44,821 nucleotides of DNA, taken from contig JAFCCF010000010.1 in the NCBI GenBank assembly GCA_017610325.1, positions 1 through 44,821 on the forward strand. Reading direction: 5' to 3'. Below the pieces are notes generated by a model. The model saw only the letters and a program-made list of their open reading frames with translations, had not been told where the DNA came from and searched no databases. The stretch is from Candidatus Aminicenantes bacterium (GTDB taxonomy: Archaea; Nanobdellota; Nanobdellia; Woesearchaeales; JAFCCF01). Positions 1 to 30,561 of the stretch are shown here, piece by piece (within the stretch, counting starts at the first letter, position 1; every line of letters starts with the position of its first letter). Position numbers and translations under genes: made by a program.

Positions 1-1898
1 CAAATCAAATCACATACCTAAACCCAAGTAGTGGGTGGTGGCACGAATACACTTATGATTCTGGATTAGGTAGCTATACAGAGCAGCATTGGCAAGATGG
101 TATTGACAATCCTATGAAGCAAGATGGTCAAGCTCAGGGCCCCTTTTATATGTTGGGGTTGCTTGTTAATAATCCTAATGCTAATTCATGGACTATAGAT
201 GGTCAGATATATAATAAAAATAATCTGCCTGAAGATTACCAAGACCAAATATATTCTCTATTCTACCAACAAAACCCATCCCCTCCAAATACTGCTACAG
301 GCGGCATTGCCGAATCAAGCATTCCTGACGGAAAAACAATGTTTGGAGATGACTATATGTATATTTATGATGCAGGTAAAGGTCAATGGGAAAAGCTTGA
401 TTTCAGTGGCCAGTCTGTTAACGGCGGAACATTCCTTGACACCTCAGAGCTTCCTGATATTCTTCAACAGGATCTAAAGGCAGAGTTCCCTGCGGGACCA
501 TCAACAACACCAGACATACCAAGTCCAATGGTTGACCAAAGCTTTGACTATTATACTTCAGGCGGTGAATACTGGCGGCAGAAAGATGGAGAATGGCAGA
601 AGTTTGAAAAGGGCAAATGGGAAGATTCGGACGAAGCGCCAAAAAATCCAAAACCATTCAAAAAAAAAAAAAAAAAAACAGGCAAGGGAGAAAAAGAAGA
701 AGAGAAAGAAAAAGATGAAACGTGGAAAGGTGCAGCGCTGTATCTTCCTTATTCAACCTTTGATCCTAATAAACCAACCGACTATTATACCTTTGGTGAC
801 GAGCAAGGCTATATGTCTTATTATCTTGGTAACTTGTACTTTTGCCCTAGTGGTGCAAATCGCAATGATGGCAACAACTGGAAGAAGATAAGCAAGAAGG
901 ACGTGGATGAAGCAACATGGGAAATGTACAGGAAGGACATATTCAGGGATGTTGCAGACTCAATGTTGAAGCGAAGGGTTGCCCAGATGGCAAGTCTTGT
1001 TAATATCATTAACCCGTCAATTGGTGCATTTGAGATAGGCAAGATATTGGAAAAATGGATGGGCGGTGATATTAGCTTGAGGCCAAAGCAAGGAACATGG
1101 TGGTATGATGCAATTGGATATTTTGAAGCAGGGTTTGAAACAGCATGGTGCAAGGAAAAAGCATCGTCATATTTCACAATGGATAGACCAGGCCACTTTG
1201 TTGGCGGCGGAGAATTCCCAACTGTTAATTCAATCACAATCTATGCACTTGGAAAAAGACAGGAATATATTAACAGTGAACAGCTTGACTGGAACACAAA
1301 CTACAGGCAGAATGGTACAAAGCCTAACTGGTTCCCTAACATTGAGTCAACAACTCCAACAACAATCCCAACTGTAACAACCACCACCCCTGGTGCTACA
1401 ACTACAACCTTGATTTATTCAAATACTAACCCTGGCATGAGCGCAGCAGGCTACATATACAAGCTCACATGGTTCATCAAGCACCCGTTCACAGCAGATG
1501 ACGTTAATAATATGAATCTTAACAAGAGGCTTAGTAATGGCTTGGACAAGGACGGCAACATCACATTCCAGATTTGGATTAAAGAAAAAGGAATACCAAA
1601 GATGACAACAAAGGGTTATATGGTTTCGCCAGAGATGATATTAGCACCAGGCGGATTAATTCAGGAGACAAAGGTTAAGTACCAGATGCCTTATCTCACT
1701 GAAATCTGCATCAAATTTAATACTTACAAGTGGAATGGAAATCACCTGGAATATCCTGCAAACTGCGACTCACCTGATGGTAAGATGGGTATGATAATCT
1801 TGCAGGAGGTTGAGGGTGCAGGCCAGTATCAGGGCATGGCTCCCAGCTCTCTGAGCCCGCCTTCACCTGGCAGTGGAAGTAGTGACTGGGATTGGTAA
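1..1898 (+). CDS. Large secreted/surface protein, 5'-truncated by the window edge. It has a Trp/Tyr/Gly-rich N-part, a Lys/Glu patch, a Thr-rich linker and a C-terminal W-C...YIYxLTW domain.
   Basis: The frame of the 114..1898 ORF stays open back to nt 3 with no stop, so the gene starts upstream of the window. There is a Thr/Pro linker (STTPTTIPTVTTTTPGATTTT). The C-terminal motifs ETAWCKEK, YIYKLTWF and YLTEICIKFN align with AKSWCNPA, YIYLITWG and YQYVCLEFN of the 698-aa protein at 10266..12362. Confidence 0.7.
   Translation, partial: NQITYLNPSSGWWHEYTYDSGLGSYTEQHWQDGIDNPMKQDGQAQGPFYMLGLLVNNPNANSWTIDGQIYNKNNLPEDYQDQIYSLFYQQNPSPPNTATGGIAESSIPDGKTMFGDDYMYIYDAGKGQWEKLDFSGQSVNGGTFLDTSELPDILQQDLKAEFPAGPSTTPDIPSPMVDQSFDYYTSGGEYWRQKDGEWQKFEKGKWEDSDEAPKNPKPFKKKKKKTGKGEKEEEKEKDETWKGAALYLPYSTFDPNKPTDYYTFGDEQGYMSYYLGNLYFCPSGANRNDGNNWKKISKKDVDEATWEMYRKDIFRDVADSMLKRRVAQMASLVNIINPSIGAFEIGKILEKWMGGDISLRPKQGTWWYDAIGYFEAGFETAWCKEKASSYFTMDRPGHFVGGGEFPTVNSITIYALGKRQEYINSEQLDWNTNYRQNGTKPNWFPNIESTTPTTIPTVTTTTPGATTTTLIYSNTNPGMSAAGYIYKLTWFIKHPFTADDVNNMNLNKRLSNGLDKDGNITFQIWIKEKGIPKMTTKGYMVSPEMILAPGGLIQETKVKYQMPYLTEICIKFNTYKWNGNHLEYPANCDSPDGKMGMIILQEVEGAGQYQGMAPSSLSPPSPGSGSSDWDW
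660..678 (+). repeat. A19 homopolymer inside the coding sequence, encoding KKKKKK.
   Basis: Counted directly: ttc followed by 19 consecutive A, then c. The tract lies in-frame in the first CDS. Confidence 0.9.
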
Positions 1899-1913
1899 AA
1901 ATATTAAATTAAA

Positions 1914-4256
1914 ATGAAAAAAAGAGGTCAGATAACACTGTACATAATAATTGGATTAATTCTTTTACTTTTTATCATGCTCGGACTGTATCTATTTAAA
2001 TCAGTCATTGAGCCAGAGGCAGTAACAAAACCAATTGAGAAAGTACCAATTGAGCTTGAGCCTGTGCAGAAATTTGTGCAGGACTGTATAAGCATGACAA
2101 CAGAGCAGGCACTAAAAACAGTGATGGAGCACGGTGGTTATGCTGACTTATCAAAGCTTCAGGCAGACATATTCAAACCAACAGAAGCTAACTCTGTTGA
2201 GTACACGCCTGGCACCAACTACCTTGTACCATACTGGTCATACCTGAAGAGCAAGAATGATTGCACAGGCGGCTGTGAATTTGCCAGCATGATAAAGCCA
2301 TTGTGTCGTGAGGGCAGTAGCTGCACAACAAATGGCAGAGACTCAGTTGAGGAAGAGATTGACTGGTACATCATCCAGAATCTGAAAAGCTGTCTGAATG
2401 ATTTTATTATCTTCAAGCCGCAGGATATTAAGATTGAGCTTGTTGGAGATATCCTGCCAATGACAACCATTCGCAAGGATAGCGTTAATGTTATTGTGCA
2501 GATGCCAATCAAGATAGATTATCTAGATTCAACAAAGCGCATGAACACATTCAATGCTGTTGTTCCAACCCAGATTACAGAACTATACACAGTTGCCCTT
2601 GACCTGCTTAACTATGAGACAACCGAATGCATGGTAGAAGACCATCAGATAAATGCAATTGGCTATTATCAGGGCTTTGAATCAGATGACCTGCCACCTT
2701 ATGCAGCAGATACCTATGGTGACCATGCTAAAAAGTTCTGGATAAAGCAGACAGTTGAGAAGAAACTCAAAGCAGTAACAAGCTTTGCAATGCAGAACAT
2801 AAGAATATTAAACACAGACGTGTTTCCATATCCAAATATTGATTCCAGCAGCCAATATCCCGATACAATTCAGGCAATGTATGATCAGTTCACATTCCGG
2901 CCTTTGGATGAATTCCATGATGTTAAGGTTAATTTCTTTTATTTTCCCTGGTGGAATCCTTATTTTGAGATTGATCCAAGCAGCGGCTCACTAATCGGAC
3001 CAAGCGACGTTATCAGTGGGTCAGGAGGTGGCTGGTTATCATATATCCTTAATAAAATCGTGCCAACTTCTTATGAATATTATTATCATTACTCATTCCC
3101 TGTTGTTGTTGAACTCAGGGCTGAAGACCCAAGGGATGAGACCAAGGAAGAATTGTTCAGGTTTGCGCTTGAGAGTAATATTAGGGCTAACAAATGCTTT
3201 TCACCAGATGCTCTGGTCACAACAGAAACAAGTGGAGCTGGCCTGCTCTGTGATGAAGATTTCAGGGGAACAATTGAATATACCATAAATGTAAAAGATG
3301 AAGTGACTGGCCAGGCAGTCAAGGATGTTGAAATATATTATTATGCAGGCGAGACATGCTATCTTGGCAAGACAGATTCAACAGGAAAATTAAAATCAAC
3401 ATTCCCTGTAGCTACTGGAGGCTTTGTTGACATCAAAAAAGAGGGCTATCTTGAGTACTTTGTGCATGAGAAAGATTTCTCAATGCTTAGTGATATCAGG
3501 CTAAAGCCGCTTTTCAAGAAAAATATTAATGTCAAGATATTCAATGAGACAAACCTGCTAAGCATGTCTGGCATGAACCAGCCAGCTGGTCTTGTATTCA
3601 GGGATTCTGTGCTGTACAACGCAGATTCAACACATCAGCTGGTGCTTACCATGTCAAGGGTAAAAGAAACATACCATGAAGGCACGCTCGAAAGCACAGC
3701 ATCGATCAGCTATGAAAATGGCGAGATTAAGATTATTCCTGAAGAGATTGAGCTGGCGCCAGGCAAGTATGAGTTTGATATCATGCTTATCTATACCCAG
3801 CCAGTTACTGTTCCAGAAGAAAACGACAGGATTTGCGTTAATTGTAACAAGAACCCCAACAGCCAGTGCAAAACATCACCTAACTGGCTTTCCAGTTGTG
3901 ATAGCTGTGACTGGAAGGAGGATAGTGCCTGCACAACAACTTGCTGGGAAGAGACAGACTGTTATAAGTGGGGCTTTTACTGCAGTGGTAGCTGTGATGC
4001 AGATGAAGAGATAACCTACGAAGCAATTGACCTCGAGCAGTCGCCTAATGGTGGTGTTAAGTTTGACAGCAGCAACAATTATTGGATGATTGGTGATTAC
4101 AGCGAACTAACAGACAACACCAAGCCAGATGTTATATTCTATGTTGTGCAGCAGAAATTGCCAGTTAGATACTATTTGCTTGAAAACCTTGATATATACA
4201 AGACATATTCCCAAAACTATAAATACCTGTTTGTGCCGGAGTTCTCAAATGGCTAA
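1914..4256 (+). CDS. 780-aa surface protein with a class III (prepilin-like) signal peptide and a CarboxypepD_reg-like beta-sandwich. Paralog 1 of 3.
   Basis: The N-terminus MKKRGQITLYIIIGLILLLF fits [KR][GAS]-Q-[IV]-[ST] followed by a hydrophobic helix. Conserved blocks are shared with the 12385 and 14637 genes: FVQDCISMTTEQALKTVMEHGGY, VPYWSYL, IDWYIIQNLKSCLNDF and FRFALESNIRAN. The segment VKDEVTGQAVKDVEIYYYAGETCYLGKTDSTGKL resembles the carboxypeptidase-regulatory-like fold. Confidence 0.8.
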   Translation: MKKRGQITLYIIIGLILLLFIMLGLYLFKSVIEPEAVTKPIEKVPIELEPVQKFVQDCISMTTEQALKTVMEHGGYADLSKLQADIFKPTEANSVEYTPGTNYLVPYWSYLKSKNDCTGGCEFASMIKPLCREGSSCTTNGRDSVEEEIDWYIIQNLKSCLNDFIIFKPQDIKIELVGDILPMTTIRKDSVNVIVQMPIKIDYLDSTKRMNTFNAVVPTQITELYTVALDLLNYETTECMVEDHQINAIGYYQGFESDDLPPYAADTYGDHAKKFWIKQTVEKKLKAVTSFAMQNIRILNTDVFPYPNIDSSSQYPDTIQAMYDQFTFRPLDEFHDVKVNFFYFPWWNPYFEIDPSSGSLIGPSDVISGSGGGWLSYILNKIVPTSYEYYYHYSFPVVVELRAEDPRDETKEELFRFALESNIRANKCFSPDALVTTETSGAGLLCDEDFRGTIEYTINVKDEVTGQAVKDVEIYYYAGETCYLGKTDSTGKLKSTFPVATGGFVDIKKEGYLEYFVHEKDFSMLSDIRLKPLFKKNINVKIFNETNLLSMSGMNQPAGLVFRDSVLYNADSTHQLVLTMSRVKETYHEGTLESTASISYENGEIKIIPEEIELAPGKYEFDIMLIYTQPVTVPEENDRICVNCNKNPNSQCKTSPNWLSSCDSCDWKEDSACTTTCWEETDCYKWGFYCSGSCDADEEITYEAIDLEQSPNGGVKFDSSNNYWMIGDYSELTDNTKPDVIFYVVQQKLPVRYYLLENLDIYKTYSQNYKYLFVPEFSNG

Positions 4257-5082
4257 AAAAAAGAGCATAAAAAAAGCAGGCAAGCCTGCACCAAAAAAAC
4301 AGCTAGCTAAGCAGCCAGCTAAGCAGCCTGCTAACTACTTCAAGAGAATATTCCAGATTTATATTAACAGCTTTAAAGACCTTAACAATGATTATTTCTT
4401 CTATGTCTTCTTTGACCTGCTGTTCCTGGTCTTTGTATCATTAGTGAGCTACCTAGCAGGCATAATCCTGACAAAATACACTGGCAGCCTTGCTGCATTC
4501 CAGGCAATGGACTCGGTTGATATCCAATATCTAACTCAGCTTAAGTCAGTGATTGGTACAATCTTCTTTGTCATGATAGTTACTGTGCTGCTGTTTATAG
4601 CTGGCTGGTCACTTGCAAAAACCTTCATATACAACAGAATCTACAAGAACAAGTTTAACTGGAAGGTTTTCCTAAAGTTCTTCCTGTCTAATCTTGGTAT
4701 TGGGATAATCTTTGTTATTATCATGGCAACCATGCCCACCTTTGTGCTGCAGAGCAAGGTGCCAATATTTGGCCTGATTGTGATGCTGGTGCTGGGCTAC
4801 CTTATAACAATCTTTTACATCCTGTTTTTCAAGCTCAGGAAGTTTGGCAAGACATTCAGCGCAACAGCCTACACAGCAGTCATGCGCATCCACAAATACT
4901 TCCTGCCTTTTTTGATATGCACACTCACTGTTTTGATAGTACTTGGCATCTTCTCTACAATCATATTCAACATCAGCTCAGGAACAATAGCTAACATCAT
5001 CAGTGCCATCTTCTTGTTGTTTGTCATTGCCTGGGCTAGGCTGTATCTTATCAAGATTGTTGAATATATTGGTTATGGGTAA
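4249..5082 (+). CDS. Polytopic membrane protein (277 aa) with a Lys-rich cytoplasmic N-terminus. Paralog of 22153..22977.
   Basis: The ATG at 4249 overlaps the upstream stop by 8 nt (ATGGCTAA). The protein starts MAKKKSIKKAGKPAPKK and has about 6 hydrophobic segments. IAGWSLAKTFIYNRIYKNKFNWKVFLKFF aligns with ILHGINWFIVSRKLLNYKIKFWTYIGKFA of the 22153 gene. Confidence 0.75.
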   Translation: MAKKKSIKKAGKPAPKKQLAKQPAKQPANYFKRIFQIYINSFKDLNNDYFFYVFFDLLFLVFVSLVSYLAGIILTKYTGSLAAFQAMDSVDIQYLTQLKSVIGTIFFVMIVTVLLFIAGWSLAKTFIYNRIYKNKFNWKVFLKFFLSNLGIGIIFVIIMATMPTFVLQSKVPIFGLIVMLVLGYLITIFYILFFKLRKFGKTFSATAYTAVMRIHKYFLPFLICTLTVLIVLGIFSTIIFNISSGTIANIISAIFLLFVIAWARLYLIKIVEYIGYG

Positions 5083-5093
5083 GTTTTCTATTC

Positions 5094-5801
5094 CTACTCT
5101 ACAAATCTTCTAAGCATTCCCACCACTAAACTTGCCTTTAGGATATCTCCCAGAACCTGTTCAGCAATATACTCTTGCAGGTCTGGCCTGGAGATTATCT
5201 TTTCTGCTGCCTTCTTAACCAGTAAATTTCCCCTAAACTTTGTTTTAGAATAAGACAACAGGGCATAAATATCGCAGGCATCCTTTAATTCCTTGTCTAA
5301 TTTCTCTCTTTCAAAGAAAGAGTTTGTTTTTAGGTCTAGAAGGGAGCTAACATCCAAAACAGGGAATCCTTCTATGTTTATTATCTTAACTTTTGCCAGT
5401 CCTGGAAGAACCCAACTACCAACATCTTTTGTTCTTTTGTTTGAGAAAACATCCAGGAAAATATATGCTAGGTCAAAAATATGCTTGCTCTTGGCTTTTT
5501 CAGAAGAGATAATCTTCTTTTCTTCCCTGTCATAAATCAGTTCATATCTAAAATCATAAGAGCTCTCTTTAAACCCAAGTTCTTTGATAATCTTTAAGAA
5601 ATCCTTTTCATCCCTTGAATCAATAAAAACATCAATATCTCTTGACTTTAGGTATTCTTTTCCAAATGCTCTTTGGTATTCACTCTTCACCTGCAAAAAA
5701 ACAGCCCAGCCGCCAATTACTGCAAATCTTAACTGTTTTACACTTTCATTTAGATTTATCAGGTATTCATAAGAAATGCTGGTCTCAATTGGGTCATACA
5801 T
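5094..5801 (-). CDS. Nucleotidyltransferase-fold protein, AbiEii-like (candidate type IV toxin).
   Basis: FAVIGGWAVFLQV...SRDIDVFID matches the minimal NTase GG-x(n)-[SR]-D-I-D signature of AbiEii/DUF1814-type proteins. It is 235 aa and overlaps the upstream wHTH gene by 8 nt (ATGTATGA). Confidence 0.55.
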   Translation of the reverse strand: MYDPIETSISYEYLINLNESVKQLRFAVIGGWAVFLQVKSEYQRAFGKEYLKSRDIDVFIDSRDEKDFLKIIKELGFKESSYDFRYELIYDREEKKIISSEKAKSKHIFDLAYIFLDVFSNKRTKDVGSWVLPGLAKVKIINIEGFPVLDVSSLLDLKTNSFFEREKLDKELKDACDIYALLSYSKTKFRGNLLVKKAAEKIISRPDLQEYIAEQVLGDILKASLVVGMLRRFVE

Positions 5802-6420
5802 TTTTCTTCCTCATTAAACTTAGAACATTTTCTGCTGCCTCATCACCTCTTCCCCCATATGAAATCAGGTCAATATACAACTGAGGCAGGGAAATAATCT
5901 TAACACCCCGTATCTCCTGGCTTCCATAAAAATAGTTATCATCAACTATATAACATTTAATATTGCCCTTTTCAGCTGGCATGATGCCTTGTTTTACAAA
6001 TATATTGGAGATTTGCTTTTCTCTACCTTTGAGGATATACAGGTGCACCGTATCTGGCGCAACATAAGGGGCAGCAATCTCTGTAGCTGAAAACAAAGTA
6101 AGGGCATATGTTTCTTTTCTCAGCAAACTACTGATTTTTTTAATTAGATACTGTGGCCTCTCAGCAGCAAGGAACTCTATCTTCTCATTTTCTTTTACAG
6201 AAACTGTACCTGACCAGGCTTGAAGAAGCTTTTCCCAACTGACTACCCTTGCCCCTGCTTTTTTTTTTAAATGCCCGCAGGACACCAGTGTCTCAACTAC
6301 CTTTGCTGTCATTCCAAGAGAAACCTGCGCCTTGCCAGCTAGCTCCCTTAGTCTTAATTTTTTCTGCCTTTCATTCAGCAAAACCCTGATGATGTTTTGG
6401 GTTGATTTGTTTATTATCAT
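5794..6420 (-). CDS. Winged-helix DNA-binding protein, AbiEi-like (candidate antitoxin and autorepressor).
   Basis: The N-terminal wHTH-like segment is IIRVLLNERQKKLRLRELAGKAQVSLGMTAKVVETLVSCGHL, followed by a C-terminal domain of about 140 aa. It sits immediately upstream of, and is translationally coupled to, the NTase gene. Confidence 0.5.
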   Translation of the reverse strand: MIINKSTQNIIRVLLNERQKKLRLRELAGKAQVSLGMTAKVVETLVSCGHLKKKAGARVVSWEKLLQAWSGTVSVKENEKIEFLAAERPQYLIKKISSLLRKETYALTLFSATEIAAPYVAPDTVHLYILKGREKQISNIFVKQGIMPAEKGNIKCYIVDDNYFYGSQEIRGVKIISLPQLYIDLISYGGRGDEAAENVLSLMRKKNV

Positions 6421-6434
6421 TGTTCTTTTTATAC

Positions 6435-6462
6435 GTTCACTTTTGTTTATAAATGTTCACTT
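6435..6462 (-). promoter_or_regulatory. Palindromic TATA box (TTTATAAA, 6446-6453) bracketed by two direct GTTCACTT repeats. Candidate promoter/operator of the AbiE-like pair.
   Basis: GTTCACTT occurs at 6435-6442 and 6455-6462, with 20-bp spacing. The TATA centre lies about 30 nt upstream of the ATG at 6420, consistent with a leaderless or short-leader archaeal mRNA. Confidence 0.4.
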
Positions 6463-6745
6463 ATATTTAAATATTTCGTTTTTTTAGCTATAATATATCT
6501 GATTTACCCATATATGGTTGTGTTTTCCGATATTTGCACACAAATGCTCATACTGTTGCCCAGGCAAGGCTATATTTTATAAAGATTGTTGATTATATCA
6601 ATTAGTAATGTCTTCTCGATAATCACAAAAACTGTTAAGTGGTTTTTTGGACGCCAGAGGCTGTTTTATTCTCTAAGCGAAACCAAAACCTTTAAATATA
6701 AGAATATTAATAGGTATAAGTATATATTACACACAAGGTGTTTGA

Positions 6746-9616: not shown

Positions 9617-10269
9617 AAATGGCAGGAGAAAATTACTATAATCAGCCAAATTATTATGGCGGAAGGTATGAGGCGCCAGTTGAGCCACCGCACCCACACA
9701 AAAAGTTCAAGCTGATACTTATCATAATCATCTTGCTTATACTTATAACTGCAGTTGTGCTGTATTTCCTTACCTCACCTGAAGACCCAGGCAGCAGGCC
9801 GCGCACAACCACAACAACAGCTGCAAGCACAGTCACAACAACCATGCAGGATATTGTATCAGACGGGCTTGAGATAAGGAACATGCTCTTTGCAGAAAGC
9901 ATCTTTGATGATTACCAGTATGTCACAAGGCAGAGCAACAAGTTTAGGAGAGGAGAGAGTGTCATAATCTTTTTTGAGGTTGCTGGTACAAGCAATAAGA
10001 TGAATATTTACGGCACATATGATGTTAATCTCAGGGAAAGGGTTGAGCTGAGGGACCCGAACGGCCAGAGAATACCTGAGCTAACATACCTGATAGATGA
10101 CAGTGTGCTGCACACATCAAAATCAAAGAACTATATCAAACCATTTGAGTATTTTTTCAACCTGCTGCAGAGCGACCCGCTGGGAACATATATGCAGACA
10201 ATCATAATCGAGGACAAGAACACAGGCAAAATCGCATCAAAGTCAATCACATTCGAGGTAGTTGAATGA
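9613..10269 (+). CDS. Single-pass (type II-like) membrane protein, 218 aa, with a poly-Thr stalk and an extracellular beta-rich domain.
   Basis: ATGA overlap with the upstream gene. The TM helix is KLILIIIILLILITAVVLYFL, followed by RPRTTTTTAASTVTTT. Confidence 0.7.
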   Translation: MKMAGENYYNQPNYYGGRYEAPVEPPHPHKKFKLILIIIILLILITAVVLYFLTSPEDPGSRPRTTTTTAASTVTTTMQDIVSDGLEIRNMLFAESIFDDYQYVTRQSNKFRRGESVIIFFEVAGTSNKMNIYGTYDVNLRERVELRDPNGQRIPELTYLIDDSVLHTSKSKNYIKPFEYFFNLLQSDPLGTYMQTIIIEDKNTGKIASKSITFEVVE

Positions 10270-12362: not shown

Positions 12363-12384
12363 CAAAACAAAAAAAGAGGTGAAG

Positions 12385-16520: not shown

Positions 16521-19500
16521 TGAAGAGAGCGACATTTGTAATATTTGTAATGATTTTGTTAGTTGCTGGAATAGCTACAGCAACAACAACTACTTCCACT
16601 ACTACTACAACCACCACCACAATTGACATCAGCGGCCCTCTCTTCATCAACACAGTTATTCCTGAGTTTTACAATGATGTTGAACTGGATATTGAGCTTC
16701 TCACAAAACCATCTGCTGAGGTATTTATCTATGTCAATGGCGAGCTCAAAAGACACAGTGTCATGGATGCAACAGGATTTTACAGGTTTGCTGATGTCAC
16801 ACTTAACCAGAACCTTTTCGAGAACAAAATCAATATTGAGGCAAAGGATTCAACTGGTTCTGTGTCCCAGGATTTCAGTGTAAAGCTTGACCTTATACCA
16901 CCTACAGTTACTCTCAAGAACCTTACAGATTTCACTGACCAGGCTACGCTGACTGTGCAGGGTACAGTTAGTGAGGATGTAAATGCAATTTTCTACCTGA
17001 GCTATGAAAGCGGGGAGAAATTCATTGAGCATAAGACAGACATTGCAGCTGGCTCGTTTTCAGAGACCGTCAACTTCAACAAGGGGGAGGGCAATTATGA
17101 GCTTGAGATAAAATTCAATGACTCTGGAGGGAACATTGTAGCAAAAACAGTAGATATTGCAATGGATGCAAGCCCGCCTGCAATAAACCTTAACCCTGCA
17201 CTTAACCAATTATCACCTTCATATGTTGATACGGTGAGGATTAAGGGCACCACAGACCCGAATGCACTGATTATTGTGTTTGTCAATGAGAAAACCTCAA
17301 CACATAAGAGCTATAGCCTAGGTGTTGTATCGATACTTGAAAAGCTTGGCAGGCTTGTTGAGGGTAAGACAGAATTACACACAACAGCTGACGGCGAAGG
17401 TAACTTTATGATTGATGTTCAGCTCACCCAGGACATTGCGGTGAGGAGCGAGGACTCTATTACCATAACACGCCCAGGTGGTACTGGGTATGTTGAGGAG
17501 ATCAGGTATTCAACAGGCAACCAGTGGCGCAACTCCATCAAGATTGTTGCAATTGACAAGTATGAGAGGGAATCACAGCCAATCACAGGCGAGATTATGT
17601 ATGCATACTGCGGTGCAGGCGGTTACTGGGGCGTCACTATTGAGAACCCAACACCAAGTATAATCCAGCCAATCCATCTGTTAAGAGGCATTGCAAGCCT
17701 TGGCTTTAACTACAGGCTTGAATGGAATGGGCCAGGCGATGCAAGCAAGGCTCGCATCAATGGCAGGCCAAGAATTGCGAAGTACACAAAGCTCAGCGGT
17801 GAGGAGTCCAAGGAATATGACAATGACCTGATTCCGTCTGGAGATATCTTCTCCCAGTTCAGCCAGCAGGCAAAAGTTGGCAGTGTAACTATTAACCTGA
17901 TGAAATGGCAGAAAACTGAGCAGGAGATTGAGGACATGGGGAAACTCAAGTTTTTCCTTGAGATGGAAATTCCCTACACCTTTGACTATTACGGTGCTAT
18001 TGGCACTGGCAGGCAGAGGAAGTGTATACCAATACATATCCAGGTTGACAAGAACATCATGGCGCACATTCCAGATGGCATGCTCAAGTTTGGTGTCAAG
18101 GCATTGAATGCAACCATTGATGTTATTGATACAGTGTTGGATGTTGTGGAAGATGTAAGGAAATTTACATTTGTAGGCTGCATTGCAATGCAATATGGCT
18201 ATAACCAGTGGATGTGGATAAAGGAAAAGCTTGCATGCGTATCATATGCTACCAACTTATTCACTCCACCTGTGCCAGAGCATGGAGAAACAATTGAACT
18301 GGCATGCAGCAAGGAAGGTGACAAGCAGGAAGATTGCGAGAAATGCTGGGAAGCAAAGGTCAGCAGGAGAAAAGCAGAAAAAACAATGCAGTGGGTGTGC
18401 GACCGTGTTTATTGCCCAGCTGCGCCAAGTGTCGAATATTATGCGCAAGAGCAGAAATCAAACCAGAACAAAATTTACTATTATTTTGAAGATGATGAGC
18501 CAGTTGTGTACCAGGGCAGCCAGTGCTATGATTACGATGCACTGAGGCCATCTTATTCTATACCTGCCAGCTCTGAAAACATTGATTCCTGCGGCAAAGA
18601 ATACAAGTATGAATGGGATCCAGCATGCATCTCAGTTGATGAGTACAGGAAGTCATTCAAGGAAACCTATGACACAAACTTCTTCAACAGCTTTGTGGAC
18701 TTTACAAGCGACATCTGCAGCAAGGGCGAGAAAGACCAATATGTAAGAACATTTGAGGCAAATGTGCTTGGTAAAAAGCATCCTTACCTTGTTATCAAGC
18801 TAAAAGGTGATACATCAGTAAATGACCCAACAGCTAACATGCATCTTAAGAGGTCAGGCTCTGAAAGGGTTGACTTCCAGTATGAGTTTGACAAGGGTGA
18901 GGGAGGAGATGGTATCAGGAACTATGGCCAGGACCGCGAGGTAAAGATTAAGCTGGTTAGCTTTACTTACCTTTACAAAAAAGGCTATAGGCTGTTTAAC
19001 AGAAGCGAGAGAACTAATGGTGTTGCACCAAAGGTTCATGAATGGAGAGAAGCATTTATCTCAGAGTCAGGTGTTATGGCTGATCTCGATAGGGCAGTTA
19101 ACGAGATTATGGGACTTCCGGATTATAATTATTATGACAAGTATTACCAGTGCAATGATGGCATTGACAATGACGATGATGGCCTTATAGACTTTACAAC
19201 AAAGGATGGTGACCCTGATTGTACTTCAGTCTATGATGATACTGAAAGCGAAGATAGGCCTCCATCAGGCGACCTTGCCAAGGATCCGCAGGAGGTTGGC
19301 AAATGGCTTGCACAGAAGTATTGTATACCCCCTGAAGCTGGGGAATCAAAGAAACAAGACGATGCTAATAAAGAAACTCTAGAAGCACAGAGCGGGTGTG
19401 ACGCGTACAGTTCTAAGTTCCCCAACAAGGGCAATGACAAAGATTTGCTTACCTGCAAGACCCGGGCAGAGAACCATTGTGATGTAATCCATGCCCAGAC

Positions 19501-22138
19501 TTCTGAGACTGAGAAAGAAAAAGACCTACAAAGCAAACAAGAACAAGATGAGGGCCAGCTCAAGGAAAAGCTTATTGCAGAAATATATAATCTTATCCAG
19601 CAGGATGTATTTGATCAGAGATACCAAGACAAATGGGTTGTTGATCCAACCTCTGGTCTGCTAAGAAGCGCATCGTGCGTGTGCCTGCCTGCATTTGAAG
19701 GTTATCTAAAACATTACAAAAACATTGCAGATGCAACCAAGCAGTGCTTTAACCAGATTTTATTAACAGGAGATACAACAGCCCAGTTCTGCAAAGCGGT
19801 CATGACGCAGTATGTCTGCGACATTATACATTCCTCACTTAAGTGCGTTGGTAAGATGTTTGGAGAAAACCTTCTGAACGCTGGCACTAACAAGGCTCAC
19901 GAAGGAGGGGGCATTGGCAGTTTCCTTGGTGCATTGTTTGGTGCAAGCGAGTCTGTTGGTAAGTCAGTAGAGAATAGGTATGGTGCAACATCAATGTTTA
20001 ATGTGATGTACCGCGAGCAGGGTTTGTGGAACTCTGCCTGTTTGGCAGCATGGGGTGGTGACTGGAATATTGAGCTTGAAAATTTGTTTGTCCGCGCCCA
20101 GGAACGGCTGCCATTAAAGAGCTTGGTATATGTGTTCCCGTCAACAAGAAGATATTTTTCAACTAACATTATAACTGGCCTGCCAACATATGTATATCAC
20201 GTAGGGTTTGGAGCGCTTGCTGGCGCAAATGTGCAGAATCTAAGGGTACAGCTGGTGTGTTCAACAGACACAACATGCGACCCAGGAGATAATTACCAGA
20301 ATGGCATATGCGACTGTTATTACACCAGGAATGACTGCCCAACTGGCGGCTGTGTACACTCACTCAGGGTGCCTGGCAGTTTAAAAAATGGGGAAACATA
20401 TTCATATGATTTCTATGAAAAGGTAGAAACCTCAAAGGTCAGGTTTGATAAGGTCAGGGTCACATATGAGTATATAGACAATAAAAATGAGAGGCAGCAG
20501 GTCAAAGAAGAATTCCCAATAAGCCTGATAGGCGGCAGCCCGCCTGCAGAGTGTACCTTTGATGTTACAAGCCTCATGTTCAGTTGCGGCATAGACACCG
20601 GGGTAAAAGGCACAGCATACTTTAACGGCATACCACGGTTTATTTCCCAAACGCCAACATTTATGATCGGCGATATGATAAAACTGCAGGGTACACTAAC
20701 AAAGATGAGTCCAAAAGACAATCCAAACTCGCCAATGTACCTTGTTGCAAAGGTCACTGACCAGGACGGAGTCATTATAGGGGGCAGTCCAAAATACTGG
20801 CACCTGCAGAGGGATGGCTCATACACCCTGGACCAAGATTCTTTGTTTACTATGGGTGTGCCAGGATTATCAATCCAAGAAAATCATTTTAGCTCAGTAG
20901 GCGGACAGTCAAGAGTCAAGGAAGGCACGAGGCGGCAAGGTGTCTATGCAACAATCGATGGCCAGCTCAGGCAAAATATAGCAATAGAATTAGGGGGTAC
21001 AGTGAATAATAGTGACTGGGATATTAAGTTTAACATCATAACACAGGGCGACGTATACATCAATGATCCTTGCGCTGAAGCTGATTATAAGGATTGTATA
21101 CTCAAAAAAGGTGGACCTAACTCCTTTGAGATTGATGGAGTCACAATTATACTTCAGGGAATTCCACTGGCATCAGATCAAAGCGGGCGATACTCAGATA
21201 CAATCAACCTCCAGCCTCAGTCAGGTATTGAGCGTAACTGGAAGGTTGAGATTTCTCTGCATTATGCAAAAGAGGATGACCCTGCAAACTATGATCCAAC
21301 ACCTATAGATGCTAACGGCGAGCAGCGCTATTCAATTCCATTTAAGGTAATAAATGCATATTCTCCAACAGCAGGCAAGTGCAGCAAATCATCTGAACAA
21401 AACTCGTTGAAAAATGATAACCCTACATGCAGGTGTGGTGTGACCTCTGAGAACAACTGCCCAACTAAGACTAACAAGTATTGTTATGGTGGTGTGTGCA
21501 GGAAGTTCCCTGCCTGTGATATAGATGCCACAAACCCGATTAAAGACTCATGCGTTTGCGATCCTTCAACAGGTGCAGGAAAAACAGATTGTAAGGTTGA
21601 CACAGACCCTAACAAGAAATCCTACTGCTACAAGGATGATGATGCAGAAACCCCAATCTGCCATGACGAAGCAAAGACACCCACACCCATAACTCCTTCA
21701 GCACCAACAACACCTGCTATTAATCTTGTGAGTATCACAGGTCTTGTGAAAAATTGCCGCAGTGCTTGCAAACTTAAACCAGATGCAGCCAATAAGTTAA
21801 AAGAAGCGCAGACAATAGCAGAGCGGGAAGGCTATAATCTCTGTGTTTTTGATTCATATAGGACAGAAGCTAGACAAAAGGAGCTCTATGACCTGCTTAA
21901 TCCGCAAAATATGCCAGTGTGCGGTCCAGACTTTGCCAATTGCCCTCATGTTAATGGTGGTGCAGTGGATATGAGGCTTTGTGATAATGACGGTAAATAC
22001 CTTGAAAGCAACGATAATTATAAAAAGCTGCAGAGAATAATGATTGAAGCAGGGTGGGCGTGGTTTAGAAGAGAACTACAGCATTTCGAATATGGAACAA
22101 CTAGTTGGAGAGGGGCAACAAATAATGAGTTCGGCTGA
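16517..22138 (+). CDS. 1873-aa giant secreted multidomain protein. Domains in order: poly-Thr stalk, Ig-like repeats, Cys-rich domains, a D-x-D Ca-binding-like motif, EGF-like Cys cluster, Pro/Thr linker and a C-terminal M15/LAS peptidase-like domain.
   Basis: ATGA-type overlap with the upstream gene. The N-terminus is MMKRATFVIFVMILLVAGIATATTTTSTTTTTTTT. Repeats end in DSTGS/DSGGN. It contains CNDGIDNDDDGLIDFTTKDGDPDC. The C-terminal motifs are SYRTEARQKELY, H1811-x6-D1818 (HVNGGAVD) and H1856 (ELQHFEY). Confidence 0.85.
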   Translation: MMKRATFVIFVMILLVAGIATATTTTSTTTTTTTTIDISGPLFINTVIPEFYNDVELDIELLTKPSAEVFIYVNGELKRHSVMDATGFYRFADVTLNQNLFENKINIEAKDSTGSVSQDFSVKLDLIPPTVTLKNLTDFTDQATLTVQGTVSEDVNAIFYLSYESGEKFIEHKTDIAAGSFSETVNFNKGEGNYELEIKFNDSGGNIVAKTVDIAMDASPPAINLNPALNQLSPSYVDTVRIKGTTDPNALIIVFVNEKTSTHKSYSLGVVSILEKLGRLVEGKTELHTTADGEGNFMIDVQLTQDIAVRSEDSITITRPGGTGYVEEIRYSTGNQWRNSIKIVAIDKYERESQPITGEIMYAYCGAGGYWGVTIENPTPSIIQPIHLLRGIASLGFNYRLEWNGPGDASKARINGRPRIAKYTKLSGEESKEYDNDLIPSGDIFSQFSQQAKVGSVTINLMKWQKTEQEIEDMGKLKFFLEMEIPYTFDYYGAIGTGRQRKCIPIHIQVDKNIMAHIPDGMLKFGVKALNATIDVIDTVLDVVEDVRKFTFVGCIAMQYGYNQWMWIKEKLACVSYATNLFTPPVPEHGETIELACSKEGDKQEDCEKCWEAKVSRRKAEKTMQWVCDRVYCPAAPSVEYYAQEQKSNQNKIYYYFEDDEPVVYQGSQCYDYDALRPSYSIPASSENIDSCGKEYKYEWDPACISVDEYRKSFKETYDTNFFNSFVDFTSDICSKGEKDQYVRTFEANVLGKKHPYLVIKLKGDTSVNDPTANMHLKRSGSERVDFQYEFDKGEGGDGIRNYGQDREVKIKLVSFTYLYKKGYRLFNRSERTNGVAPKVHEWREAFISESGVMADLDRAVNEIMGLPDYNYYDKYYQCNDGIDNDDDGLIDFTTKDGDPDCTSVYDDTESEDRPPSGDLAKDPQEVGKWLAQKYCIPPEAGESKKQDDANKETLEAQSGCDAYSSKFPNKGNDKDLLTCKTRAENHCDVIHAQTSETEKEKDLQSKQEQDEGQLKEKLIAEIYNLIQQDVFDQRYQDKWVVDPTSGLLRSASCVCLPAFEGYLKHYKNIADATKQCFNQILLTGDTTAQFCKAVMTQYVCDIIHSSLKCVGKMFGENLLNAGTNKAHEGGGIGSFLGALFGASESVGKSVENRYGATSMFNVMYREQGLWNSACLAAWGGDWNIELENLFVRAQERLPLKSLVYVFPSTRRYFSTNIITGLPTYVYHVGFGALAGANVQNLRVQLVCSTDTTCDPGDNYQNGICDCYYTRNDCPTGGCVHSLRVPGSLKNGETYSYDFYEKVETSKVRFDKVRVTYEYIDNKNERQQVKEEFPISLIGGSPPAECTFDVTSLMFSCGIDTGVKGTAYFNGIPRFISQTPTFMIGDMIKLQGTLTKMSPKDNPNSPMYLVAKVTDQDGVIIGGSPKYWHLQRDGSYTLDQDSLFTMGVPGLSIQENHFSSVGGQSRVKEGTRRQGVYATIDGQLRQNIAIELGGTVNNSDWDIKFNIITQGDVYINDPCAEADYKDCILKKGGPNSFEIDGVTIILQGIPLASDQSGRYSDTINLQPQSGIERNWKVEISLHYAKEDDPANYDPTPIDANGEQRYSIPFKVINAYSPTAGKCSKSSEQNSLKNDNPTCRCGVTSENNCPTKTNKYCYGGVCRKFPACDIDATNPIKDSCVCDPSTGAGKTDCKVDTDPNKKSYCYKDDDAETPICHDEAKTPTPITPSAPTTPAINLVSITGLVKNCRSACKLKPDAANKLKEAQTIAEREGYNLCVFDSYRTEARQKELYDLLNPQNMPVCGPDFANCPHVNGGAVDMRLCDNDGKYLESNDNYKKLQRIMIEAGWAWFRRELQHFEYGTTSWRGATNNEFG
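21770..22138 (+). other. Peptidase M15 (VanY / L-Ala-D-Glu peptidase-like, LAS zinc metallopeptidase) domain at the C-terminus of the giant protein.
   Basis: The pattern FDSYRTEARQKELY ... CPHVNGGAVDM ... GWAWFRRELQHFEYG corresponds to the S-x-[YF]-R-[ST]-x-x-x-Q, H-x6-D and terminal-His zinc/catalytic motifs of M15 D,D- and L,D-peptidases. Confidence 0.65.
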
Positions 22139-22152
22139 GCAATTTAATTAAA

Positions 22153-22977
22153 ATGTTTTTCTCAGGTATGATTTCAGAGCTAAATACTTCATTAAGAAGA
22201 TTATATGAGAAGCTTGGCTATATCTTGCTGTGCATGGTTCTTGACCTGCTGTTCTTTTTTGTGTATGGGATTGTATCTTTTTTTGCAATGAGTGTTGTGT
22301 ATAAGCTGATTAATGACCTTTCTGGATATCTCTCTGCATCGCCAGAGCTTGTTGTAAGCCTTGCATCTGACCCATTGTATAAGCAGCAGCTGAACGAGCT
22401 CTTGGTAGTGGTGCTGATTGCCATTGCTTTTACATATGTCATCTACACAATACTGCATGGCATAAACTGGTTCATTGTCAGCAGGAAACTGCTCAACTAT
22501 AAGATTAAGTTCTGGACTTATATTGGAAAATTTGCTGTCACAAGCCTGCTATGCTTTTCATCAATAGCTATTTTGGTTGTTGCTTATCTTAAAATATCAT
22601 TTACATCTTTATTTGAGTCCCAGCAAATTGCGTGGATTATATTCCTTGTGCTGCTGTTTATTGTGTTGTGGTTTGGGTTTATAACACATGCACTTGCGCC
22701 AAGCAACAAGCTCAAGGACATCTATAAGAAAACATTCAGAATTGGAATCAAGAAAGCGCATTATGTGCTGCTGATATATGCTGTGCTGGTCATCATTGGA
22801 ATTATTATCAATTTTATCCTTAGCTTGTTTGGAAAACTCAGCCCAGGACTTTTGTATGCTGGCGGAATCCTGCTGTTCCTGCCATTCATGACATTCTTCA
22901 GAACACACCTGACTCAGACCATTAACAAACTAGATAAAAACAATAAGAAGAAAAATAAAACAAAAAAGAGAAGATAA
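22153..22977 (+). CDS. Polytopic membrane protein (274 aa) with a Lys-rich C-terminus. Paralog of 4249..5082.
   Basis: It has about 6 hydrophobic segments and starts 14 nt after the giant gene. It shares sequence blocks with the 4249 gene. Confidence 0.75.
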   Translation: MFFSGMISELNTSLRRLYEKLGYILLCMVLDLLFFFVYGIVSFFAMSVVYKLINDLSGYLSASPELVVSLASDPLYKQQLNELLVVVLIAIAFTYVIYTILHGINWFIVSRKLLNYKIKFWTYIGKFAVTSLLCFSSIAILVVAYLKISFTSLFESQQIAWIIFLVLLFIVLWFGFITHALAPSNKLKDIYKKTFRIGIKKAHYVLLIYAVLVIIGIIINFILSLFGKLSPGLLYAGGILLFLPFMTFFRTHLTQTINKLDKNNKKKNKTKKRR

Positions 22978-23881: not shown

Positions 23882-23954
23882 TATTATCACCTTTGATTAT
23901 TATTTATTTTTATATAACTCATGTGTTACTACTCTAATATAAATGTTTCGATTT

Positions 23955-27339: not shown

Positions 27340-30561
<3,222 letters not shown>

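What the first reader, a model, noticed from the sequence alone, without database searches (positions are those of the whole stretch)
1..22977. 23-kb two-module locus of giant secreted proteins, pilin-signal paralogs and polytopic membrane proteins: candidate uncharacterised archaeal cell-surface or host-contact apparatus
Ten co-directional genes fill about 21 kb. At least four junctions are ATGA-type overlaps (9613, 10266, 14637, 16517) and one is an 8-nt overlap (4249), so the genes look co-translated as an operon. The same logic appears twice. Module 1 is a secreted W-C/YIY-domain protein (..1898), then a pilin-signal paralog (1914), then a 6-TM protein (4249). Module 2 starts with an Ig-like/Cys-rich protein (6746) and a single-pass protein (9613). 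It continues with a W-C/YIY-domain protein (10266), two pilin-signal paralogs (12385, 14637) and the giant protein (16517), and ends with a 6-TM protein (22153). Nearly every extracellular protein begins with a poly-Thr stalk. None has a C-terminal anchor such as a TM helix or a PGF/PEF-CTERM. This suggests they are held by the N-terminally anchored pilin-signal proteins or the membrane proteins. Apart from generic folds (Ig-like, CarboxypepD_reg-like, M15) I recognise no characterised family and no known system with this composition. No assembly ATPase, PilC/FlaJ platform or prepilin peptidase is in the window.
Basis: partly seen in the sequence, partly recalled or inferred. Interest (0 to 1): 0.85.

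Follow-up and report, generated by a model that had tools for sequence, protein, structure and literature searches.

The report
Woesearchaeal surface apparatus aimed at bacterial walls
This is a conserved, unannotated gene cluster of tiny DPANN archaea (Woesearchaeota) that encodes pilin-signal proteins, giant secreted proteins and membrane proteins, and it repeatedly carries enzymes that cut bacterial cell walls, so it is probably a surface machine for attaching to or attacking bacteria.

Summary
There are two corrections. A reverse-strand AbiE-like pair (5094-6420) splits the locus into two units; a 54%-identical relative lacks the pair. Poly-Thr stalks open only three of the proteins.

The ten proteins fall into five families. 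These are the pilin-signal proteins G2/G9/G10, the giant Ig-array proteins G6/G11, the Cys-rich proteins G1/G8, the 6-TM proteins G3/G12, and the single-pass G7. None passes a Pfam or NCBIfam threshold. Only the C-terminus of G11 resembles a known family, the M15 peptidoglycan peptidases.

The cluster is conserved. At least 109 species genomes, labelled Woesearchaeota or Nanoarchaeota, carry a G10 relative. In 80 of 85 fetched loci that gene sits directly upstream of a G11-like giant. The flanks are housekeeping genes. No pilus ATPase, platform or peptidase lies nearby, and no relative was found in viral contigs.

One cluster layout includes a secreted enzyme built from an SGNH module and shuffled peptidoglycan hydrolases. 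The same hydrolase families are occasionally fused to giant C-termini, as M15 is here.

My best reading (confidence 0.5) is a membrane-anchored surface complex that contacts bacteria and breaches murein. How it is assembled is unknown.

The parts
3..1898 (+). G1, a Cys-poor secreted protein cut by the contig end. Its C-terminal domain is shared with G8 and the U0 family.
   Evidence: Translation. hhalign of G1 residues 483-631 against U0 gives 80% probability, E 1.4e-5. The L001 ortholog is 50% identical.
1914..4256 (+). G2, pilin-signal protein paralog 1 (780 aa). The N-terminus reads MKKRG|QITLYIIIG.
   Evidence: BLASTP to G9 gives 6e-50 and to G10 1e-24. Motif.
4249..5082 (+). G3, a 6-TM membrane protein with a basic N-terminal tail. 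It belongs to the same family as G12.
   Evidence: Hydropathy shows 6 segments. The family is found in 42-44 loci.
5094..6420 (-). Inserted AbiEii-like nucleotidyltransferase plus AbiEi_2 antitoxin-like pair. It is not part of the apparatus.
   Evidence: AbiEi_2 scores 40.3 bits against a cutoff of 21. NTP_transf_5 scores 19.9 against a cutoff of 31.2. The pair is absent from the colinear locus L001. PADLOC finds nothing.
6746..9616 (+). G6, a secreted Ig-array protein of 956 aa. It has a signal peptide, a poly-Thr stalk, Ig-like repeats and a Cys-containing C-terminal region. It is a shorter paralog of G11.
   Evidence: hhalign of the G6 and G11 N-terminal regions gives 95-98%. G6 ~720-795 against G11 ~1037-1107 gives 92%. 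The family is found in 41 loci.
9613..10269 (+). G7, a single-pass membrane protein with a Thr-rich stalk and a small C-terminal beta domain.
   Evidence: TM helix at 34-52 and Thr run at 65-79. Homologs lie directly downstream of the giant in 28 loci.
10266..12362 (+). G8, a secreted Cys-rich protein (46 Cys). Its C-terminal domain is shared with G1 and U0.
   Evidence: hhalign of G8 residues 460-617 against U0 gives 92.7%, E 4e-7. Signal-like N-terminus.
12385..14640 (+). G9, pilin-signal paralog 2. The ATG at 12385 follows a GAGGTGA motif; a GTG at 12379 is also in frame.
14637..16520 (+). G10, pilin-signal paralog 3. This member always pairs with the giant. It has an N-terminal helix, a novel alpha/beta head and then beta-sandwich domains.
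   Evidence: AF2 mean pLDDT 89.3. Foldseek finds only transthyretin-like, CnaB or Ig hits for the C-terminal domains. It is adjacent to the giant in 80 of 85 loci.
16517..22138 (+). G11, the giant secreted protein of 1873 aa. It has a signal peptide, a poly-Thr stalk, a conserved Ig/FN3 block (~40-660), a variable acidic Cys-rich region, a conserved core (1001-1420) and a variable tail.
   Evidence: Conservation profile. Pfam hits on family members.
19517..20776 (+). Conserved core of G11 (aa 1001-1420). It holds 11 invariant Cys, a helical part with a small-residue zipper (GGGIGSFLGALFG, aa 1130-1142) and a beta-sandwich.
   Evidence: Alignment A9. An exhaustive search finds 556 protein clusters. 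AF2 gives pLDDT >90 for the beta-sandwich and 40-65 for the helices.
21722..22096 (+). C-terminal M15 (VanY/LAS-type) peptidoglycan peptidase domain of G11. The zinc triad H1811-x6-D1818 and H1856 is present.
   Evidence: NCBIfam D-Ala-D-Ala dipeptidase 2.1e-12. Pfam VanY 8.8e-4. PHROG endolysins. PDB 2VO9, the Ply500 L-Ala-D-Glu peptidase, 3.7e-4. Motif positions. The L001 ortholog lacks this domain.
22153..22977 (+). G12, a 6-TM membrane protein with a basic C-terminal tail.
   Evidence: A member of this family directly follows the giant in 24 of 59 loci where the next gene is visible.

Best explanation
The locus encodes a cell-surface multi-protein apparatus specific to Woesearchaeota (DPANN archaea).

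Shown:
- Five protein families co-occur in conserved order in more than 80 related genomes, inside housekeeping neighbourhoods.
- The three pilin-signal proteins carry a nearly invariant K-[KR]-[GA]|Q-[VI]-T-x-F-I-I-x-G N-terminus followed by a hydrophobic helix.
- The giants carry Sec-type signals, Ig/FN3 arrays and a conserved Cys-rich core.
- Peptidoglycan-hydrolase domains are either encoded in the operon as a separate secreted multi-enzyme or fused to the giant's variable C-terminus. In this window the fused domain is an M15 peptidase with an intact zinc triad.

Inferred:
- The pilin-signal proteins are processed by a prepilin peptidase encoded elsewhere. They stay in the membrane through their N-terminal helix, or form a short pseudopilus-like stalk.
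- Together with the 6-TM proteins and the single-pass G7 they hold the secreted giants (G6, G11) and the Cys-rich proteins (G1, G8) at the surface.
- The giants project on glycosylated Thr-rich stalks and Ig arrays, bind a bacterial cell and bring murein-cutting domains to its wall.
- This opens the sacculus for attachment, feeding or lysis. The archaeon has no murein, so it needs no immunity protein.
For: Conserved synteny:
- At least 109 species genomes carry a G10 relative.
- The pilin-signal gene directly precedes the giant in 80 of 85 loci, with a 4- or 8-nt overlap in 34 of them.
- There are two recurring layouts, 47 loci of type A and 25 of type B.
- Flanking genes are housekeeping: MetRS, PAC2-like, enolase, MTAP and GatD.

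Pilin-like signal: the motif is present in 96 of 113 family members. AF2 predicts a helix at residues 2-32.

Link to peptidoglycan:
- Type-B operons end with a secreted SGNH-module protein. It carries shuffled GH25, Amidase_2, SLT, DUF2272, phage-tail-lysozyme, SleB-like or M15_4 domains.
- Several of the same families are fused behind the core of individual giants: M15 in G11 and P0119, Amidase_2 in P0138, SLT in P0085 and DUF2272 in P0090. One giant carries NlpC/P60 and one carries SH3_3. This is a Rosetta-stone type of link.
- The G11 M15 domain keeps H-x6-D...H and matches the Ply500 endolysin.

Literature: large extracellular murein-lytic proteins and a possible bacterial host have been proposed for Woesearchaeota and Pacearchaeota (PMC8204110, PMC9723730). 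Archaeal peptidoglycan hydrolases kill bacteria experimentally (PMC12352652).
Against: - There is no direct evidence for a physical complex, for surface location, for prepilin processing or for muralytic activity.
- Most giants, roughly 200 sampled, and all type-A accessory proteins scanned have no recognisable hydrolase domain. The murein link therefore rests on a minority of fusions plus the type-B operon partner.
- The M15 hits are below the curated family cutoffs.
- No assembly ATPase, platform or peptidase is nearby in any locus.
- The G10 model shows a helix, then a linker, then a 600-aa head, not a canonical pilin fold.
- Structure searches gave only generic beta-sandwich matches.
- No host of any Woesearchaeon is known.
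Confidence: 0.5

Rival explanations
1. This is a housekeeping cell-envelope coat. The giants and their partners would be the S-layer-like surface coat of Woesearchaeota. The occasional hydrolase domains would be add-ons for scavenging muropeptides from dead bacteria, not for contact with living cells.
For: The cluster is widespread and vertically conserved, and it sits among housekeeping genes. The proteins are large, glycosylation-prone (Thr-rich) and built of Ig arrays. Most members lack enzymes.
Against: No S-layer family hit and no C-terminal anchor was found. There are seven or more different conserved components, including two polytopic membrane proteins and two or three pilin-signal paralogs. 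That is far more than known archaeal S-layers use. The operon-linked bacteriolytic multi-enzymes of type-B loci are hard to explain as coat proteins.
Confidence: 0.22
2. This is an accessory or tip module of a type IV pilus-like filament. G2, G9 and G10 would be minor or tip pilins assembled by a TFF machine encoded elsewhere. The giants would be tip adhesins or lysins, as PilY1-type adhesins ride on bacterial minor pilins.
For: A class III signal-like motif is present in 96 of 113 members. An N-terminal helix is predicted. Two or three paralogs per locus resemble minor-pilin sets. Some DPANN archaea encode TFF systems with a PilY-like adhesin (bioRxiv 10.64898/2026.04.22.720090).
Against: No ATPase, platform, peptidase or small major pilin lies in the window or in the 10-kb flanks of 85 loci. 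No pilin HMM hit was found. The head domains are 600-750 aa, and a flexible linker rather than a packed alpha-1C helix follows the N-terminal helix.
Confidence: 0.2
3. This is cargo of an integrated virus or mobile element, such as tail-fibre-like or entry proteins with an endolysin domain.
For: The PHROG endolysin hits fall on the G11 C-terminus. A toxin-antitoxin-like pair lies inside the locus. BFVD hits to baseplate and tail proteins reach E 6e-8.
Against: The BFVD matches have TM-scores of 0.09-0.21 and cover only generic beta-sandwiches. No relative was found in 2.9 million IMG/VR contigs. No capsid, terminase or integrase is present. The chromosomal neighbours are the same across dozens of species. 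The TA pair is a lineage-specific insertion.
Confidence: 0.03

Closest known systems
Large extracellular murein-lytic-transglycosylase proteins of Woesearchaeota and Pacearchaeota (protein family fam00969, Module 98; Castelle et al. 2021, PMC8204110; also Vigneron et al. 2022, PMC9723730)
   Same: They come from the same lineages. They are proteins of up to ~3000 aa, predicted extracellular, and proposed to bind or degrade bacterial walls. At least one giant of the G11 family (P0085) carries an SLT domain.
   Different: Those reports describe single proteins recognised by their enzyme domain. Here the defining element is a conserved non-enzymatic core plus a multi-gene operon, and most members have no hydrolase domain. 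Whether the G11 family is identical to fam00969 could not be tested.
Secreted archaeal peptidoglycan hydrolases that kill bacteria (Strock et al. 2025, PMC12352652)
   Same: They are archaeal proteins carrying bacterial-type peptidoglycan hydrolase domains, enriched in Nanoarchaeota, and the target is bacterial murein.
   Different: Those are stand-alone modular hydrolases. Here the hydrolase domains are appended to, or co-encoded with, a conserved apparatus of pilin-signal, giant and membrane proteins.
Archaeal type IV filament systems and class III signal peptide proteins (pili, or the Sulfolobus bindosome with its large substrate-binding proteins)
   Same: They share a [KR][GA]|Q-type class III signal-like N-terminus followed by a hydrophobic helix. 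In the bindosome, large globular proteins also carry such signals.
   Different: No ATPase, platform or peptidase genes are linked. No pilin family HMM match was found. The head domains have a fold with no PDB match.
Phage endolysins and tail-associated lysins of the M15/LAS family (for example Ply500, PDB 2VO9)
   Same: The G11 C-terminus aligns with Ply500 and keeps the His-Asp-His zinc site. A lytic domain also sits at the end of a long fibre-like protein.
   Different: The rest of G11 has no viral homologs, and the locus is chromosomal and cellular.
Bacterial polymorphic toxin/effector proteins (Rhs, CDI, MAF-type)
   Same: They share the architecture of a conserved N-terminal and core scaffold with a variable, swappable C-terminal enzymatic domain.
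   Different: There is no sequence relationship and no adjacent immunity gene. The warheads are wall hydrolases aimed at another domain of life.

Membership tests
Type IV filament (TFF) pilins / class III signal peptide proteins | Short basic leader ending in G/A, followed by a hydrophobic stretch (the prepilin peptidase site) | tested here: met
   K-[KR]-[GA]|Q-[VI]-T-x-F-I-I-x-G is present in 96 of 113 family members and in G2, G9 (Ser at -1) and G10. This is a match at motif level only.
Type IV filament (TFF) pilins / class III signal peptide proteins | Recognition by curated pilin or class III signal HMMs | tested here: not met
   No Pfam or NCBIfam hit at E <= 0.1 for G2, G9 or G10.
Type IV filament (TFF) pilins / class III signal peptide proteins | Genetic linkage to an assembly ATPase, a platform protein and a prepilin peptidase | tested here: not met
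   None in the window. None was recognised among the recurrent neighbours of the 85 loci with 10-kb flanks. The rest of the genome was not available.
Type IV filament (TFF) pilins / class III signal peptide proteins | Pilin fold, with the C-terminal half of the alpha-1 helix packed on a small beta-sheet domain | tested here: inconclusive
   The AF2 model shows a helix at 2-32, a lower-confidence linker at 33-41 and then a ~350-aa alpha/beta head plus beta-sandwiches. Coordinates could not be inspected.
Type IV filament (TFF) pilins / class III signal peptide proteins | Cleavage by PibD/EppA-type peptidase | not testable with these tools
   This needs biochemistry or N-terminal proteomics.
Peptidase M15 (VanY/VanX, LAS metallopeptidases): G11 C-terminus | Zinc-binding H-x6-D and a distal H, with the upstream substrate Arg | tested here: met
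   R1782, H1811, D1818 and H1856 are present. The region aligns with Ply500 (2VO9) across the H-x6-D motif.
Peptidase M15 (VanY/VanX, LAS metallopeptidases): G11 C-terminus | Score above the curated family threshold | tested here: not met
   Pfam VanY scores 19.5 bits against 25. NCBIfam PRK10178 scores 47.1 against 176. It is a divergent member.
Archaeal S-layer proteins | Match to an S-layer family, or a C-terminal TM / PGF-CTERM anchor | tested here: not met
   No such hits. No C-terminal hydrophobic segment.
Polymorphic effector architecture | Conserved scaffold with variable C-terminal enzymatic domains across orthologs | tested here: met
   The core is conserved and the tails are variable. 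The tails carry M15, Amidase_2, SLT, DUF2272, NlpC/P60, Metallophos or SH3_3 in different giants.
Polymorphic effector architecture | Cognate immunity gene downstream | tested here: not met
   The gene after the giant is the conserved 6-TM gene or G7, not a variable small gene.
fam00969 large SLT-domain proteins (Castelle 2021) | Membership in that protein cluster | not testable with these tools
   The family's sequences are not at hand. Only the description matches.
AbiE type IV toxin-antitoxin (genes at 5094-6420) | AbiEi antitoxin plus AbiEii nucleotidyltransferase | tested here: inconclusive
   AbiEi_2 is above its cutoff (40.3 against 21). The nucleotidyltransferase is below its cutoff (19.9 against 31.2). 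No PADLOC model hit.
Provirus / mobile element | Viral hallmark genes, or relatives on viral contigs | tested here: not met
   The only PHROG hits are endolysin hits on the M15 domain. There are 0 relatives in IMG/VR.

The most novel reading that the evidence does not exclude
Woesearchaeota, one of the most abundant uncultured archaeal lineages, carry a dedicated multi-component surface machine. It would be built from class III signal proteins without a linked pilus motor, giant Ig-array proteins with a conserved Cys-rich and possibly membrane-active core, and 6-TM proteins. Its job would be to dock onto bacteria and breach their murein wall. That would be the first cross-domain (archaeon-on-bacterium) attachment or predation apparatus described, and a genetic marker for which DPANN have bacterial hosts.
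Probability: 0.35. Interest if true: 0.9.

Novelty: categorically new. Interest (0 to 1): 0.72.

Why it matters
No host and no host-contact structure is known for Woesearchaeota, and whether any DPANN archaeon lives on bacteria is an open question. This cluster gives a concrete, widely conserved set of candidate genes. It has testable enzymatic parts (the M15 domain here, and the GH25/amidase/SLT cocktails in relatives). It also gives a marker pair, the G10-like and G11-like genes, for screening metagenomes, metaproteomes and cryo-ET data. All five core families are at present annotated as hypothetical or 'fibronectin type III domain' proteins.

Tried and rejected
- Pfam, NCBIfam and PHROGs on all ten proteins gave nothing except the M15 tail and weak Ig hits.
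- Sequence and profile searches of the PDB found nothing for the pilin-signal family, the G11 core, the 6-TM family, G6 or G8.
- Foldseek of the confident G10 model against the PDB and against BFVD gave only generic transthyretin-like, CnaB or Ig matches with TM-scores <= 0.2.
- The AF2 model of the G11 core was mediocre (pLDDT 67), and Foldseek gave only ApaG/Ig-like hits. A pore-forming or fusogenic role for the glycine-zipper segment therefore remains speculation.
- The word-indexed homolog search is insensitive for these families. It returned 15, 35 and 1 hits. The pattern scan of genomes and the exhaustive HMMER search showed the families are large.
- One alignment was too divergent for the locus search, one alignment of 77 giants failed, and one reference was out of frame.
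- hhalign found no link between the type-B enzyme protein U1 and any window protein.
- A seed from a 'C40 peptidase' fragment found nothing further.
- The provirus idea was rejected.
- Full-text searches did not find a paper that describes this operon.
Full report
**What is in the window**

The window is an archaeal contig. The genes outside the locus include ribosomal proteins S3Ae, L10e and S6e, aIF2-gamma, an intein-containing GyrB, MscS and triosephosphate isomerase. Every named relative of the locus proteins comes from Candidatus Woesearchaeota, or from Nanoarchaeota in the GTDB sense.

Ten + strand genes lie between 1 and 22977. There are 4-nt overlaps at 9613, 10266, 14637 and 16517 and an 8-nt overlap at 4249.

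Two details need correcting. First, a reverse-strand gene pair at 5094-6420 separates G1-G3 from G6-G12. It consists of an AbiEi_2 antitoxin-like protein and a weak AbiEii-like nucleotidyltransferase. A colinear relative at about 54% identity (L001) lacks the pair, so it is a recent insertion. Second, N-terminal poly-Thr stalks occur only in G6, G7 and G11.

**Protein families**

| Family | Window members | Evidence |
|---|---|---|
| Pilin-signal | G2, G9, G10 | BLASTP 1e-19 to 6e-50 |
| Giant Ig-array | G6, G11 | hhalign 95-98% over the Ig-like N-terminal arrays; 92% over part of the Cys-containing region |
| Cys-rich secreted | G1, G8 | Both C-termini match the U0 family of other loci, 80% and 93% |
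| 6-TM membrane | G3, G12 | Six hydrophobic segments each; separate iterative searches recover similar numbers of ORFs, 65 and 67 |
| Single-pass | G7 | One TM helix, Thr stalk and a small beta domain |

None of the ten proteins reaches a Pfam or NCBIfam threshold, and none has a PHROG match other than endolysin hits on the G11 tail.

**The pilin-like signal**

Across 113 family members, 96 carry K-[KR]-[GA]|Q-[VI]-T-x-F-I-I-x-G-[IL]-x-L-L-L near the N-terminus. This has the form of an archaeal class III (prepilin) signal. In the window only G2, G9 and G10 have it.

An AlphaFold2 model of G10 from 51 sequences is confident (mean pLDDT 89.3). It shows a helix at 2-32, a short linker, an alpha/beta head of about 350 residues and then beta-sandwich domains. 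Foldseek against the PDB and against viral models matched only the generic beta-sandwiches (transthyretin-like, CnaB, Ig). The head found no match. These proteins therefore have a pilin-type signal but not an obvious pilin body.

**Conservation**

A pattern scan of one genome per species found relatives of G10 in at least 109 genomes, and 80 loci were fetched. I called ORFs in all 85 loci held and classified them with iterated HMMs.
- The G10-like gene directly precedes a G11-like giant in 80 of the 85 loci. The two genes overlap by 4 nt in 25 loci and by 8 nt in 9.
- Type A layout (47 loci): pilin-signal, G6-like, G8-like (U0), 6-TM, pilin-signal, giant, 6-TM.
- Type B layout (25 loci): pilin-signal, giant, G7-like, and then a secreted protein of 500-1150 aa (U1).
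- The window is a type-A variant with an extra upstream G1-G2-G3 module, which L001 also has.
- Flanking genes are housekeeping: MetRS, a PAC2-like chaperone, enolase, MTAP and GatD.
- No secretion ATPase, platform protein or prepilin peptidase recurs nearby.
- A scan of 2.9 million viral contigs found no relative.
- An exhaustive HMMER search with the G11 core (aa 1001-1420) found 556 clusters at 50% identity, 254 of them at E <= 1e-30. Nearly all are in proteins of 1500-3000 aa. Where they are named, they are Woesearchaeota 'hypothetical' or 'fibronectin type III' proteins.

**The link to bacterial cell walls**

The G11 C-terminus (aa ~1736-1860) is a divergent M15/LAS peptidase.
- NCBIfam D-Ala-D-Ala dipeptidase matches at 2e-12, Pfam VanY at 9e-4, and several PHROG endolysin families also match.
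- The closest solved structure is the Listeria phage endolysin Ply500, an L-Ala-D-Glu peptidase (PDB 2VO9, E 3.7e-4).
- The zinc site H1811-x6-D1818 and H1856 is present.
- The L001 ortholog ends before this domain, so it is a swappable tail.

In type-B loci the operon's last gene (U1) combines a shared SGNH/GDSL module with shuffled domains. These are GH25 muramidase, Amidase_2, SLT, DUF2272, phage-tail lysozyme, SleB-like hydrolase, M15_4, an EEP nuclease/phosphatase, a metallophosphatase and FGE-sulfatase-like domains.

Several of the same families are fused behind the core of individual giants elsewhere: Amidase_2 in P0138, SLT in P0085, DUF2272 in P0090, M15 in P0119 and Metallophos in P0070. 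One giant carries NlpC/P60 and one carries SH3_3.

The same enzyme families thus appear either as an operon partner or as a fusion. This argues that the apparatus and murein hydrolysis belong together. Archaea have no murein, so the target must be bacterial. Most giants, however, have no recognisable enzyme.

**The giant's core**

The core has 11 invariant cysteines. It also has a small-residue zipper (GGGIGSFLGALFG, aa 1130-1142) inside a predicted helical region. AF2 gave only low confidence for the helices and high confidence for the following beta-sandwich. Foldseek returned only ApaG/Ig-like folds. A membrane-active role for this segment is speculation.

**Interpretation**

The best-supported reading is a membrane-anchored surface complex that binds bacteria and cuts their wall (confidence 0.5).

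The shown steps are the conserved operon, the signal types, the domain architecture and the recurrent hydrolase association. The inferred steps are prepilin-type processing, anchoring through the pilin-signal, 6-TM and G7 proteins, physical assembly, and the biological purpose (attachment, feeding or killing).

The rivals are:
- an S-layer-like coat with incidental scavenging enzymes (0.22);
- a tip or accessory module of a type IV filament whose motor is encoded elsewhere (0.20, partly compatible with the main reading);
- a viral or mobile origin (0.03).

**Comparison with the literature**

- Castelle et al. 2021 (PMC8204110) noted proteins of up to 3000 aa with a murein lytic transglycosylase domain in Woesearchaeota and Pacearchaeota. 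They also noted a module of 51 mostly unknown lineage-specific families, and suggested attachment to bacterial walls.
- Vigneron et al. 2022 (PMC9723730) proposed a 'vampiristic' lifestyle.
- Strock et al. 2025 (PMC12352652) showed experimentally that archaeal peptidoglycan hydrolases kill bacteria, and found such genes enriched in Nanoarchaeota.
- None of the papers I could find describes the conserved operon, the pilin-signal family or the giant's conserved core.

I therefore rate the system as new in kind, although one of its components has probably been glimpsed before.

Noticed in passing
window 5094-6420 (-): An AbiEi_2-like antitoxin and a weak AbiEii-like nucleotidyltransferase overlap by 8 nt. 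They are inserted between the two modules and are absent from the colinear relative L001. PADLOC has no model hit.
   Followed up: partly
window 27340-30561 (+): GyrB is interrupted by an intein (Intein_splicing across aa ~447-869, between the GyrB domain and Toprim).
   Followed up: no
loci L053-L085 (type-B clusters), N-termini of the G10-like proteins: Many type-B pilin-signal proteins seem to have a leader of 20-35 residues (for example MYKKRC...SSFI...) ahead of the K-G|Q motif. This is unusually long for a class III signal. It may instead reflect my naive start-codon calls.
   Followed up: no
loci L007-L085, record titles: Dozens of TPA MAG contigs that carry this Woesearchaeota-type cluster are titled 'uncultured Methanosarcinales archaeon'. 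These labels are probably placeholders or errors.
   Followed up: no
window 19904-19942 (G11 aa 1130-1142): A glycine/small-residue zipper (GGGIGSFLGALFG) is conserved in the giant's core as G-I-G-x-F-x-x-A-L-T-x-A-G. It could be a membrane-active segment. AF2 confidence there is low.
   Followed up: partly
window 22979-23890 (-): A highly charged 303-aa protein with a poly-Asn run lies convergent with G12. It is conserved next to the cluster in L001 (39% identity) but not in the more distant loci. It has no family hit.
   Followed up: partly
window 35138-37206 (-): Two overlapping genes of 495 and 194 aa. The larger one has a weak Cys-rich repeat hit (Dicty_CTDC). It may be another secreted Cys-rich protein.
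   Followed up: no
window 42256-43743 (-): The domains Glycos_trans_3N, Glycos_transf_3 and PYNP_C, with a CDC48_N-like N-terminus, look like an AMP or nucleoside phosphorylase. This would fit the nucleotide-salvage metabolism reported for DPANN.
   Followed up: no
type-A loci such as L025, L033, L041, L042, downstream of the 6-TM gene: Recurrent extra genes follow the cluster: U5 (~200 aa, one TM helix) and U15 (~270 aa, with a 'GVCSDMAVLY' motif reminiscent of transglutaminase-like cysteine proteases). Neither is present in the window.
   Followed up: no
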